Made by a program: the position numbers. From sequence record NC_021190.1: DNA of 46,150 nt; one strand, 5' to 3'. This stretch comes from Enterobacteria phage phi80. Positions 12,001-15,000 of this stretch are shown piece after piece (position 1 is the stretch's first letter; each line of letters opens with the position of its first letter).

Positions 12001-15000
12001 TGCTGAATGGCAGGCAGCAGAGAAAGAGTACCGTGCTCTGTCCGGCAATCTCAAGGTTGATCCGGACTATGCCGGTAACAACGTTCTGCAAAAGGCAGAT
12101 GCGGAAAGGCTGAGAAACGCGCGCCAGCAGGTAGAGCTTAAGAAGCAGGCTTACGATCTTGCCGATAAGCAATATGCCCAGGAAGGGCTGGCAGCTGCCA
12201 GGGAAAAAATGCGGACGGAACAGCAGACACAGGCAGTCCGGACCCAGCAGCAATTTAATCAGATGGTTGAATCCGGGGCGACGGCGGCAGAAAAACGTGC
12301 CCTTGCGGAGAAAAAACTCAATCAGCTTATCGCTAAAAACCGCCAGGATGCGAAAGACGGCATCGCCACGTTGTGGACTGAAAAGGACATAGCGGCAGCA
12401 CGCGCCGGTATTAAAAAGAAGTGGAAGGATCCCAAAACGCCGAAAGGCAAAAGCTATTCAACGCCAGCCGGGGATAAAGCTGAAGAAAAAGCGCAGGCTG
12501 AACTTCTCACCCTTCAGGCCCAGCTTAAAACGCTCGAGCAGCATACCAGCGTAAACGACGTCATAAGCAAACAGCGTCAGGATCTCTGGCAGACTGAAAA
12601 TCAGTTCACCGTTCTGCAGGAGGCCGCTGGGCGTCGTCAGCTTACGGCGCAGGAAAAATCCCTGCTGGCGCACAAGGAAGAAACGCTCGAGTACAAGCGG
12701 CAGCTGGCCGACCTGGGCGATAAGGTTGCCAGGCAGCAAAAGCTCAACCAGCTGACCGACCAGGCCGTGAAGTTTGAGCAGCAGCAAAAAGCCGCCAGGG
12801 CGGGCCTGCAGGCTCAGTCTGAGGGGCTATCCACCCGCGAGGCCGGGCGACAAACCACCCTGCAACGTCTCAGCGAGAGCTATTCATATAATCCTCAGGC
12901 GCAGCAAAAGGTTCTGGAAGAGCAAAGGGCGACGTTCGAGGCTGAAGATGCCCTGCGCGCAAACTGGCTGGCCGGTGCGAAACAGGGCTGGGCCGAATAT
13001 CAGGATTCAGCGACAAACGTTTTCAGCTCCGTTCAGCAGATTTCGCAGGCAACGTTCAGCGGGCTGGCTGGCCAGCTTACCAGCCTGACGACAACCGGGA
13101 AGGCGAGCTTCCGGGACTTCACCAGCTCAATCCTCAAAATGATTGTGTCCGTTATCAACCAGCTGCTGGTGGCTTACACCATCCAGAGCGCAATGGGCTG
13201 GGTGAGCGGCGGGGCGAAAGCCTCCTCTGCAGGTCAGTCATTCGCGGTCCAGTCATACCGGCCACAGGGTTTTGACGTGGGCGGTTTTACCGGGCACGGC
13301 GGCAAGTACGAGCCAGCCGGTATCGTTCACCGCGGGGAATTCGTCTTCACCAAAGAATCAACCAGCCGCATCGGCGTGGCTAATCTCTATCGCCTGATGC
13401 GCGGGTATGCCTCGGGTGGTCTGGTCGGCGGCGGGAACGCAGCCGGTGCTGGCATGGGCGGGATTAGTGTTTATGCCCCAGTCAGCATCAGCCAGCAGGG
13501 GAGTGACGGAAGCATAAATCAGGCGAACGCCACGGGGACGGCGAAACAGCTGCAGGCGATTGTTCAGCAGACAATCACCGAGCGACTGAAAAAAGAAATG
13601 TCCGCGGGCGGCGTGCTTTATTCGAGGAGGACACAGTGACGGACACGTTTACCTGGCGCACGCGAAAAACAGCGCAGGGCACTGAAACAGCCCGAACGCT
13701 GCAGGCCCAGTTCGGGGATGGCTACAAACAGATAGCGGGGATGGGGATCAACGACAAACAGGAAACGTGGAACCTGGACTGGACGGGCACCAGACAGGAG
13801 GCGGCTGCGCTGCGCGCTTTCCTGATGTCTCACGTTACTAAATCGTTCTGGTGGACCACTCCATGGGGTGAAAAAAAGCTGTTCAGAATGAAGGCCGATT
13901 CGTTCAGCGTTTCTTTCCCTACCGGGAAAAAAGCCACTGTGGCCTTCACTTTTGAACAGGCGTTCGCGCCCTGATTTTCTCGAAAAACACTGAAAGCTGC
14001 CTCCGGGCGGCTTTTTTTTATGGGGGGAGTATGAGTTTTACGGCAGACATACAACAGCTTGAGCCCGGCAGCGTTATTCAGCTGATTGAGATCGACGGCA
14101 CTGAATTCGGTATGGATCAGGTGCTGCGTTTTCATGCGCACAATATTCAGGAAGAGGGGTGGGCAGCCTTCGCCGCAGAAAATCTGCCCGCCATTATCTG
14201 GCAGGGAAACCAGTACGATCCCCATCCCTACGAACTTAAGGGGATGGAGTTATCGAGTACAGGTTCCCAGCCAACGCCCACGCTGTCCGTCGGGAACGTC
14301 GGAAACTATGTCACCGCGCTGTGTCTTGAATATGACGATATGGTCAGGGCTAAGGTCAAAATCCATACCACGCTTTCGAAGTATCTCGATGCCGCCAACT
14401 GGAAAAACGGTAATCCGGGTGCCAGCCCGGCCGATGAGCGCGTACAGCTCTTTTACGTCAATGCCAAAACCGCAGAGACGCGTGTACAGGTTGATTTCGA
14501 GCTGTGCTCTCCTTTCGATATTCAGAGCCTGCAGCTGCCGACACGGCAGATTACGCCTGTCTGCACCTGGTGTATGCGGGGCTGGTACCGAAGCGGGACT
14601 GGATGCGATTACAACGGCACGAAATACTTTACCAAAGACGGTACACCGACCGATGACCCGTCGAAAGATGTATGTGGCGGCCGCCGGCAGGATTGTCAGG
14701 ATCGTCACGGCCCGGACGCGCCGCTGCCGTTCGGCGGTTTTCCGGCTGCAAACCTGCAGGGGAAATAAAATGCGTGAAAAATTGCTGGATGCTATCCGTC
14801 AGCACGTCGCTGCTGAATACCCCAAAGAAGCCTGCGGCCTGATTGTTCAGTCAGGCCAGCAACAAATCTTTATTCCCTGCCGCAACATTGCCGATAAGCC
14901 CGAGGAGACATTCACGCTCTCCCCGGAAGACCAGCTCGCTGCCCGCGCGCGCGGTGAGATCATCATGCTCATTCATTCCCATCCGGATGTGGTTCGGCTG

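What the first reader, a model, noticed from the sequence alone, without database searches (positions are those of the whole stretch)
13993..14019. Hairpin plus T8 between tail genes M and L
This is a second terminator-like structure inside the late operon, directly before the RBS of L. Together with the D/E hairpin and the terminator before J, it suggests segmented attenuation of the late transcript.
Basis: seen in the sequence. Interest (0 to 1): 0.35.

Follow-up and report, generated by a model that had tools for sequence, protein, structure and literature searches.

The report
Conserved terminator between phi80 tail genes
The hairpin plus T8 between tail genes M and L of phage phi80 is a real, evolutionarily conserved, textbook Rho-independent terminator that the public phi80 record already annotates. 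It marks a slot where related prophages carry extra "moron" genes, so it is ordinary rather than a new regulatory device.

Summary
The window is phage phi80. It lies in a 56-nt gap between the M stop codon and the L start codon. Predicted stability is -15.7 kcal/mol, equal to the terminators just downstream of the phage's Q antiterminator gene. Strict terminator-like sites number 9 in the window against 0.1 in shuffles. GenBank FN582354.1 already labels it a "putative rho-independent transcription terminator".

Across about 140 related loci, a GC-rich hairpin plus T6-9 sits just upstream of the L ribosome-binding site in nearly every phi80-type tail module. At least 20 different stem sequences occur, and every stem cell counted forms a pair. 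More distant relatives (HK97-like) instead have M and L overlapping by 4 nt.

In at least 12 relatives, low-GC cargo sits between M and the hairpin. Cargo types include lipoproteins, an antitoxin and minus-strand genes.

Best reading: this is the fixed downstream terminator of a moron or cargo slot that is empty in phi80. It would stop ordinary RNA polymerase and be read through by Q-modified polymerase. Novelty is low.

The parts
13636..13974 (+). Tail-tip gene M (112 aa), stop codon TGA at 13972-13974
   Evidence: ORF. Pfam Phage_min_tail, E = 1.2e-25. Annotated as minor tail protein M in FN582354.1.
13975..13991 (+). Variable 17-nt spacer between the M stop codon and the hairpin
   Evidence: 10 haplotypes among 67 close relatives. 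Its predicted pairing with the L RBS is no better than with shuffled spacers.
13992..14001 (+). 5' arm of the hairpin, GAAAGCUGCC
   Evidence: The only variants in close relatives are A-to-G changes that keep pairing.
14002..14005 (+). Tetraloop UCCG
   Evidence: Six loop haplotypes among close relatives, so it varies freely.
14006..14015 (+). 3' arm of the hairpin, GGCGGCUUUU
   Evidence: The only variant, GGCAGC, turns the U.G pair into U-A. Compensatory changes across families.
14012..14019 (+). T8 tract (U-tract of the terminator); the first four T also pair with the A-run of the 5' arm
   Evidence: A T6-T9 run immediately follows the stem in every hairpin-bearing relative.
14020..14030 (+). 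L translation-initiation region AUGGGGGGAGU, with a G-rich Shine-Dalgarno sequence at 14022-14029
   Evidence: Position relative to the T-run is conserved (TTTTTTTATGGG... in most relatives). 10 haplotypes among close relatives.
14031..14768 (+). Tail-tip gene L (245 aa)
   Evidence: ORF. Pfam Phage_tail_L, E = 6e-67. Annotated.
41137..41946 (+). Q antiterminator gene (context: controls the late operon that contains M and L)
   Evidence: Pfam Antiterm PF03589, E = 1.3e-34. Q dependence of phi80 late genes shown in PMC11364771.
42068..42100 (+). First tR'-like terminator between Q and the holin gene (comparator)
   Evidence: -17.7 kcal/mol.
42360..42387 (+). Second tR'-like terminator before the holin gene; shares the stem GCUGCC/GGCGGC, including the U.G pair, with the M/L hairpin
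   Evidence: -15.4 kcal/mol.
16693..16716 (+). Terminator of the MorF moron, directly before the J RBS (same layout; comparator)
   Evidence: -13.2 kcal/mol.
21550..21578 (+). Terminator of the cor moron, directly before the stf RBS (same layout; comparator)
   Evidence: -13.6 kcal/mol.

Best explanation
This is a canonical intrinsic (Rho-independent) transcription terminator. It forms the fixed, L-proximal boundary of an accessory-gene (moron or cargo) slot between tail-tip genes M and L, and in phi80 that slot is empty.

Proposed mechanism. When ordinary, unmodified RNA polymerase transcribes 13992-14019, the GC-rich UCCG-capped hairpin forms in the RNA exit channel. The U8:dA hybrid then melts and the transcript is released within or just after the U-tract, which is just before the L Shine-Dalgarno sequence. 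Any transcription not licensed by Q would therefore not reach L-K-I-J. That includes transcription from a cargo promoter in relatives, or spurious promoters in AT-rich cargo. During lytic growth, polymerase modified by phi80 Q at the late promoter ignores this terminator, just as it ignores the equally strong terminators just after the Q gene. M and L are then co-transcribed, and L is translated independently from its own RBS.

What is shown and what is inferred. Shown here: the anatomy, non-random occurrence, deep conservation with compensatory changes, the derived state relative to the M/L overlap, cargo occupancy in relatives, and the presence of Q. Inferred: actual termination, read-through by Q-modified polymerase, and the insulating role.
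For: (1) Anatomy and strength equal the phage's own tR'-like terminators: -15.7 against -17.7 and -15.4 kcal/mol, with a T8 run. There are 9 strict sites in the window against 0.1 expected.

(2) FN582354.1 independently annotates it as a putative rho-independent terminator.

(3) Conservation. All 80 viral loci and most of the 55 genome loci with phi80-type L (67-100% aa identity) carry a GC hairpin plus T6-9 ending about 11-17 nt before the L ATG. These hosts include Enterobacter, Citrobacter, Pantoea, Erwinia, Rahnella, Serratia, Rosenbergiella and Gilliamella. By the automatic test, 19 of 23 stem classes pass, against about 0.6% of shuffles. L092 and L100 also carry one on inspection.

(4) Compensatory evolution. 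On hairpin-anchored alignments, 100% of 252 stem cells pair. Three of six pairs in each alignment change on both sides. No shuffle out of 500 reaches the covariation score, and slid controls give 31-64% pairing.

(5) Purifying selection at empty sites. In 67 close relatives the only three stem variants preserve pairing. By contrast the loop has 6 haplotypes, the spacer 10 and the RBS 10.

(6) Derived state. Every relative with L identity of 54% or less (HK97, HK633, mEpX2-like, Photorhabdus and others) has M and L overlapping by 4 nt and no hairpin.

(7) Cargo slot. At least 12 relatives carry 336-1679 nt of low-GC DNA (0.31-0.44 against flanks of 0.48-0.57) between the M stop and the hairpin. 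Cargo includes a lipoprotein (phrog_914), a phrog_26231 gene behind a TTGACA-17-TATATT promoter, a HigA-like antidote, minus-strand genes and multi-gene inserts. The hairpin always stays next to L.

(8) The two bona fide moron terminators in the same genome (MorF/J and cor/stf) have the same layout: a T-run, 12-15 nt containing the RBS, then the ATG.

(9) A Q gene plus downstream terminators are present. phi80 late expression is Q-dependent (PMC11364771). Q prevents terminator hairpin formation (10.1101/651190).
Against: No transcript 3' ends, termination efficiencies or read-through values were measured, and none were found in the literature searched. phi80 has no cargo gene here. The promoter scan lists no plus-strand match to its consensus criteria between 5762 and 15486, so there is no obvious transcript for it to terminate in phi80. 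Why selection keeps the hairpin at empty sites is therefore unexplained by insulation alone. In relatives with minus-strand cargo (L107, L115, L133) the hairpin cannot be that cargo's own terminator. The covariation alignments were anchored on the hairpin found in each sequence, which biases the percentage paired upward. A plain MAFFT alignment was out of structural register, and RNAalifold found no consensus on it.
Confidence: 0.6

Rival explanations
1. Segmental attenuator. Even Q-modified polymerase terminates here at a useful frequency. The late transcript would then be stepped down at the D/E, M/L and I/J junctions, and the distal tail-tip genes would be made in smaller amounts than the upstream genes.
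For: Several strong terminators lie in series on the late strand, at 6127, 13996, 16693 and 21553. The hairpin is maintained by selection even where no cargo is present, which needs a function independent of cargo. [quoted passage not shown]
Against: Q-loaded polymerase is termination-deficient because Q narrows the RNA exit channel and prevents hairpin formation (10.1101/651190). The same polymerase must already pass two equally strong terminators right after Q, and one after Rz. HK97-like and lambda-like relatives assemble the same tail tip with M and L overlapping and no terminator. The terminators before J and stf are explained by the MorF and cor morons.
Confidence: 0.15
2. mRNA decay barrier or processing signal. 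The hairpin forms in the full-length late mRNA after transcription and blocks 3'-to-5' exonucleases. This would stabilise the upstream H-M segment, or define a stable 5' segment for L.
For: It is a stable, UNCG-type capped helix conserved by compensatory change. It sits at an operon-internal junction where differential stability could matter.
Against: A decay barrier needs only the helix. Here the contiguous T6-9 tract is conserved with the helix in every stem class, which is the specific signature of termination. M and H are low-copy proteins, with no evident need for extra message stability.
Confidence: 0.1
3. Functionless scar: the leftover terminator of a moron that phi80's ancestor lost, now drifting.
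For: The slot is empty in phi80 and no local promoter is predicted. Cargo-bearing relatives share stems with empty ones, for example CCGCC/GGCGG in both the empty L072 group and the cargo-bearing L102, L106 and L107.
Against: About 45 distinct empty junctions keep a perfect GC hairpin plus T-run. All stem polymorphisms in 67 close relatives preserve pairing, while the loop, spacer and RBS vary. Only 3 stem classes (L113, L123, L125) have lost it. This pattern indicates purifying selection, not drift.
Confidence: 0.1
4. Translational coupling device. The spacer just after the M stop codon pairs with the L Shine-Dalgarno sequence across the base of the hairpin, so L is translated only when a ribosome terminating on M opens that helix.
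For: In phi80 the minimum-free-energy fold pairs UUUUCUCG (13975-13982) with UGGGGGGA (14021-14028). The predicted probability of SD-spacer pairing is 0.72 in phi80.
Against: The helix is mostly G.U pairs. Across 33 distinct junctions the SD-spacer pairing probability (mean 0.46) equals that with shuffled spacers (0.47; median rank 0.58). It drops to 0.25 when longer flanks are included. Spacer variants such as GAATATCG occur with the same RBS.
Confidence: 0.03

Closest known systems
Moron-associated Rho-independent terminators of lambdoid phages (HK97/HK022 morons; MorF and cor in phi80 itself)
   Same: A GC hairpin plus T-run on the late strand, placed immediately upstream of the RBS of the next late gene. 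In relatives it follows low-GC, independently promoted accessory genes inserted between conserved tail genes. This matches the moron definition and the notion of insertion hotspots in PMC2920897.
   Different: In phi80 and most relatives the slot holds no gene and no promoter, so the terminator is an orphan. It is nevertheless conserved, and it persists next to L even when the cargo is on the opposite strand.
tR'-type terminators overridden by Q antitermination (lambda, 21, 82, phi80)
   Same: Same class of signal and similar predicted strength. It lies in the same Q-controlled transcription unit. The second tR'-like terminator even shares the GCUGCC/GGCGGC stem.
   Different: tR' is the regulated decision point directly downstream of the late promoter. 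The M/L terminator lies roughly 18 kb further along the late transcript, counted through cos, and has no known regulatory role.
P22 ant moron region between gene 16 and the tailspike gene
   Same: A variable accessory region inside a late operon at one preferred position, with many alternative contents across relatives. It is suggested to influence read-through into the distal structural gene (PMC2629481).
   Different: P22's region contains regulated promoters, repressors and an antisense RNA. The phi80 site is only a 56-nt spacer with a hairpin.
Classical transcription attenuators (trp-type leaders, riboswitch expression platforms)
   Same: An intrinsic terminator located upstream of a coding sequence within an operon.
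   Different: No leader peptide and no ligand-binding domain. No match to any Rfam family. The one alternative pairing examined, between the spacer and the L RBS, was no better than shuffled controls.

Membership tests
Intrinsic (Rho-independent) terminator | GC-rich stem of about 5-14 bp closed by a short (3-8 nt) loop | tested here: met
   A 10-bp stem with 5 G-C pairs and a UCCG loop, -15.7 kcal/mol.
Intrinsic (Rho-independent) terminator | Uninterrupted U-tract immediately 3' of the stem | tested here: met
   T8 at 14012-14019. T6-9 in all hairpin-bearing relatives.
Intrinsic (Rho-independent) terminator | Located on the transcribed strand in an intergenic position | tested here: met
   Plus strand, within the 56-nt M-L gap.
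Intrinsic (Rho-independent) terminator | Helix maintained by selection (compensatory substitutions) | tested here: met
   At least 20 stem sequences. 100% of stem cells paired, double-sided changes at 3 of 6 pairs, and 0 of 500 shuffles reach the score. The alignment was anchored on the hairpin, which is a caveat.
Intrinsic (Rho-independent) terminator | Releases RNA polymerase, with transcript 3' ends in the U-tract | not testable with these tools
   No 3'-end data available. Literature searches found none for phi80.
Moron (autonomous promoter-gene-terminator cassette inserted in a phage operon) | An extra gene present between genes that are adjacent in related phages | tested here: not met
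   phi80 has only 56 nt and no ORF here. The feature is met in relatives L067, L068, L076, L090, L094, L102, L106, L107, L115, L122 and L133.
Moron (autonomous promoter-gene-terminator cassette inserted in a phage operon) | Own promoter | tested here: not met
   No sigma-70-like site in the phi80 gap or nearby on the plus strand. L076 cargo has TTGACA-17-TATATT.
Moron (autonomous promoter-gene-terminator cassette inserted in a phage operon) | Own terminator at the downstream end | tested here: met
   The hairpin plus T-run is the downstream end of the plus-strand cargo genes in L067, L068, L076, L090 and L094, at the same position as in phi80.
Moron (autonomous promoter-gene-terminator cassette inserted in a phage operon) | Base composition different from the flanking phage genes | tested here: inconclusive
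   Not meaningful for 56 nt in phi80. Cargo in relatives has GC of 0.31-0.44 (0.46 in the 157-nt L100 gap) against 0.48-0.57 in the flanks.
Q-antiterminated lambdoid late operon (context of the element) | Q gene followed by terminator(s) upstream of the lysis and morphogenesis genes on the same strand | tested here: met
   Pfam Antiterm at 41137-41946, terminators at 42068 and 42360, and holin, lysozyme and Rz genes downstream.
Q-antiterminated lambdoid late operon (context of the element) | Late-gene expression requires Q | not testable with these tools
   Reported experimentally for phi80 Orf6 in PMC11364771. Not tested here.
Regulated attenuator | Conserved alternative (anti-terminator or sequestering) structure, or a leader peptide | tested here: not met
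   Spacer-RBS pairing is no better than shuffled spacers. The 4-codon ATG..TGA mini-frame at 14020-14034 is not conserved, being absent in L090. No match to any Rfam family.

The most novel reading that the evidence does not exclude
The M|L terminator may be a selectively maintained 'socket': a terminator that Q-modified polymerase ignores and that is kept even when the slot is empty. It would let promoter-bearing accessory genes be plugged in between M and L without de-repressing the distal tail genes. That would make this junction a recurrent cargo and defence hotspot, and a recombination seam, across Enterobacterales prophages. A variant of this reading is that the terminator measurably attenuates even Q-modified transcription and so sets tail-tip stoichiometry.
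Probability: 0.2. Interest if true: 0.4.

Novelty: already known. Interest (0 to 1): 0.2.

Why it matters
The practical value is mainly annotation and engineering. The analysis confirms that a predicted terminator in a widely used laboratory phage is a conserved, probably functional element. It also shows that the M/L junction of phi80-type tail modules is a natural, tolerated insertion point, bounded by a terminator, where many prophages carry accessory genes. That is useful for mining prophage cargo and for inserting payloads into phi80-like phages, including the related Nissle 1917 prophage. It does not reveal a new regulatory principle.

Tried and rejected
(1) Translational coupling by RBS sequestration. 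The phi80 fold pairs the post-stop spacer with the L Shine-Dalgarno sequence. Across 33 distinct junctions this pairing is no better than with shuffled spacers, and it weakens with longer flanks. Rejected.

(2) Rfam search of the whole window found no family at gathering thresholds. This is uninformative, because generic terminators are not Rfam families.

(3) A plain MAFFT alignment of 53 junctions (A1) put different stem families out of structural register, and RNAalifold returned no consensus. A second attempt (A2) was also shifted by one column for the CGC/GCG stem family. I therefore used two hairpin-anchored, gap-free alignments (A3 and A4) and state that bias.

(4) A bidirectional terminator was considered and rejected from reading the sequence. 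On the minus strand the stem is followed by TTTCAGTGTTTTTCG, which is a poor T-tract. There is no convergent minus-strand gene.

(5) A mini-ORF, ATG GGG GGA GTA TGA at 14020-14034, overlaps the L start. It is not conserved; L090 has a stop codon in that frame. I treat it as incidental.

(6) PADLOC search of five cargo proteins gave no defence-system hits. Pfam gave only DUF1327, a sub-threshold HEPN hit and a HigA-like antidote.

(7) The phi80 genome paper (PMC3510586) and the phi80 Q paper (PMC415771) are not held in the library. Searches for phi80 or Nissle prophage 3'-end or transcriptome data found nothing usable.
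Full report
**Identity of the window.** The 1.2 kb around the finding is 100% identical to Enterobacteria phage phi80 (FN582354.1) and 97-98% identical to mEp043, mEp213, LLS and a few other phages. 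It is also 94-100% identical to prophages in 37 complete E. coli genomes, including Nissle 1917. The flanking ORFs are tail-tip genes M (13636-13974, Pfam Phage_min_tail) and L (14031-14768, Pfam Phage_tail_L).

**The observation.** The sequence at 13992-14019 is GAAAGCTGCC-TCCG-GGCGGCTTTT-TTTT. It sits in a 56-nt gap between the M stop codon (13972-13974) and the L ATG (14031). The T8 run ends 11 nt before the ATG, directly ahead of the G-rich RBS.
- The consensus scan lists it among the best terminator-like sites.
- It folds at -15.7 kcal/mol. That equals the two strong terminators just downstream of the Q gene (-17.7 and -15.4) and exceeds the MorF and cor moron terminators (-13.2 and -13.6).
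- Under a strict definition the window holds 9 such sites. Dinucleotide shuffles give a mean of 0.1.

It is not new: FN582354.1 annotates this stem-loop as a "putative rho-independent transcription terminator" of gene 17.

**Conservation.** I fetched 80 viral contigs and 55 bacterial genome loci that encode relatives of L. I then measured the M-L junction in each.
- Every locus whose L is at most 54% identical to phi80 L has M and L overlapping by 4 nt (ATGA), with no hairpin. This group includes HK633, mEpX2 and prophages of Photorhabdus, Superficieibacter and Pseudescherichia.
- Nearly every locus with L at least 67% identical has a gap of 41-75 nt, or a much longer one. A GC-rich hairpin plus T6-9 ends about 11-17 nt before the L ATG. 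These loci come from Enterobacter, Citrobacter, Pantoea, Erwinia, Rahnella, Serratia, Rosenbergiella, Gilliamella and others.
- The stems differ widely: GCTGCC/GGCGGC, GCTGCC/GGCAGC, CCGCC/GGCGG, GCCACC/GGTGGC, GGCCGC/GCGGCC, GGACGC/GCGTCC, GGGCGC/GCGCCC, GCTCGC/GCGGGC and more.
- Of 23 stem classes, 19 pass an automatic terminator test that only about 0.6% of shuffled junctions pass. Two more, L092 and L100, have the element on inspection.
- Exceptions are L113, L123 and L125, which lack a good hairpin. Two further loci have the overlap arrangement: Aeromonas phage pAEv1818 and a Serratia prophage.

**Covariation and selection.**
- On two gap-free, hairpin-anchored alignments, all 252 stem cells form standard pairs. 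Three of six pairs in each alignment show changes on both sides. No shuffle out of 500 reaches the covariation score, and slid-partner controls give only 31-64% pairing.
- The caveat is that the segments were chosen by a hairpin finder. An unanchored MAFFT alignment was out of structural register and gave no RNAalifold consensus.
- Independent of alignment, the 67 closest relatives have only three stem variants, and all three preserve pairing: two A-to-G changes that make G.U pairs, and one G-to-A change that turns U.G into U-A. In the same loci the 4-nt loop has 6 haplotypes, the 17-nt spacer 10 and the RBS 10. That is the signature of purifying selection on the helix at sites with no cargo.

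**What the junction is used for.** In at least 12 relatives the space between the M stop and the hairpin holds extra DNA of 336-1679 nt. Its GC content is low (0.31-0.44 against 0.48-0.57 in the flanks).
- A 113-117 aa lipoprotein of PHROG 914 occurs in L067, L068 and L090. Another lipoprotein occurs in L094.
- A PHROG 26231 gene in L076 lies behind a near-consensus promoter, TTGACA-17-TATATT.
- L107, L115 and L133 carry minus-strand ORFs.
- L102 and L106 carry multi-gene inserts.
- A Gilliamella prophage (L122) carries a HigA-like antidote.

In all of these the hairpin plus T-run remains immediately upstream of the L RBS. At equal L identity (about 80-84%), M identity falls into discrete classes of roughly 49-60% or 73-87%. 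The junction therefore also looks like a mosaic seam. This fits the published description of morons: inserted between adjacent phage genes, with their own promoter and/or terminator, deviant GC content, and recurrent hotspots (PMC2920897). In phi80 itself, the two bona fide moron terminators (MorF before J, cor before stf) have the same layout of a T-run, 12-15 nt holding the RBS, then the ATG.

**Transcriptional context.** The window encodes a Q antiterminator at 41137-41946 (Pfam Antiterm). It is followed by two strong terminators at 42068 and 42360, then the holin, lysozyme and Rz genes. phi80 late-gene expression has been shown to need Q (PMC11364771). Structural work on Q21 shows that Q-loaded polymerase is termination-deficient, because Q narrows the RNA exit channel and prevents terminator hairpins (bioRxiv 10.1101/651190). 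A polymerase that has passed the tR'-like terminators should therefore pass the equally strong M/L terminator.

**Best explanation (confidence about 0.6).** The element is a canonical intrinsic terminator that forms the fixed downstream boundary of a moron or cargo slot, which is empty in phi80.
- It should stop unmodified polymerase just before the L RBS and be read through by Q-modified polymerase.
- It would thereby insulate L-K-I-J from Q-independent transcription while leaving lytic expression intact.
- Shown: anatomy, non-randomness, conservation and compensation, derivation from an ancestral M/L overlap, cargo occupancy, and the presence of Q.
- Inferred: termination itself, Q read-through, and the insulating benefit.
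- The weak point is that phi80 has no predicted promoter upstream that would need insulating. The reason for selection at empty sites therefore remains open.

**Rivals.**
The P22 ant moron is a precedent (PMC2629481). It runs against the known Q mechanism, and relatives build the same tail tip without any M/L terminator.
- An mRNA decay barrier (about 0.1) does not explain the invariably linked U-tract.
- A functionless scar (about 0.1) conflicts with the pairing-preserving polymorphism.
- RBS sequestration or translational coupling (about 0.03) was tested and rejected: spacer-RBS pairing of 0.46 against 0.47 for shuffled spacers.

**Novelty and interest.** The feature is already annotated, and its kind is well known (intrinsic terminators, moron terminators, Q read-through). 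What this analysis adds is modest and comparative. The terminator is a conserved hallmark of phi80-type M/L junctions, derived relative to the overlapping arrangement. The junction is also a recurrent accessory-gene hotspot. Interest 0.2.

Noticed in passing
window 6124-6148 (between D, which ends at 6093, and E, which starts at 6161): A second orphan terminator-like hairpin, AAAAGCCGC-TTGC-GCGGCTTTTTTT, lies 12 nt ahead of the major capsid gene ATG. FN582354.1 annotates -35 and -10 promoter signals and a transcription start here. The records of mEp237, HK225 and N15 annotate the homologous sequence as a terminator.
   Followed up: partly
L091, L096, L108, L109, L114, L116 (about 40-50 nt upstream of the L ATG); variants in L126 and L140: In Pantoea/Erwinia-type junctions a perfect 12-nt palindrome, GTGACATGTCAC, overlaps the M stop codon, upstream of the terminator hairpin. 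phi80 has no counterpart.
   Followed up: no
L100 (Rahnella inusitata), between the post-M hairpin and L: The terminator hairpin sits right after M. About 100 nt containing three tandem copies of a roughly 22-nt unit (CATAACGCGCTTTGAACCAC-like) are inserted between it and a new L RBS.
   Followed up: no
window 14020-14034: A four-codon mini-frame, ATG GGG GGA GTA TGA, starts right after the T-run, and its stop codon overlaps the L ATG (ATGA). Many relatives have an ATG, GTG or TTG at the same place, but L090 has an in-frame stop, so it is probably incidental.
   Followed up: partly
window 42360-42387 compared with 13992-14019: The second tR'-like terminator downstream of Q shares the core stem GCUGCC/GGCGGC, including the same U.G wobble, with the M/L hairpin. 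The loops differ (GUUC against UCCG).
   Followed up: no
window about 6.2-13.4 kb compared with FN582354.1: The coordinate offset between the window and the FN582354.1 record is 1 nt at the D gene but 23 nt at the M/L hairpin. The two phi80 sequences therefore differ by about 22 nt of indel somewhere between those points. A 1133-nt comparison also showed 99.6% rather than 100% identity beyond position 14600.
   Followed up: no
L067/L090 860-1201, L068 2092-2445, L094 (cargo between M and L): The cargo encodes small lipoproteins with lipobox signal peptides (PHROG 914, no Pfam or PADLOC hit). They are reminiscent of the phi80 lipoprotein morons MorF and Cor, and could be superinfection-exclusion candidates.
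   Followed up: partly
L122 (Gilliamella sp. Pra-s52), upstream of L: The DNA upstream of the hairpin encodes a HigA-like addiction-module antidote (Pfam PF21716, E = 8e-29). No M homologue was detected in that locus within the fetched flank.
   Followed up: partly
window 4477-4492: A strict terminator-like hairpin (CCCGC-CTATGC-GCGGG followed by TTTTCTTT) lies inside the coding region of the 4408-5751 ORF (gpC/scaffold), on the late strand.
   Followed up: no
L002-L140, M identity against L identity: At a fixed L identity of about 80-84%, M identity is either about 49-60% or about 73-87%. L029 has L at 99.6% but M at 80%. The M/L junction therefore looks like a recombination seam between tail-module segments.
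   Followed up: partly
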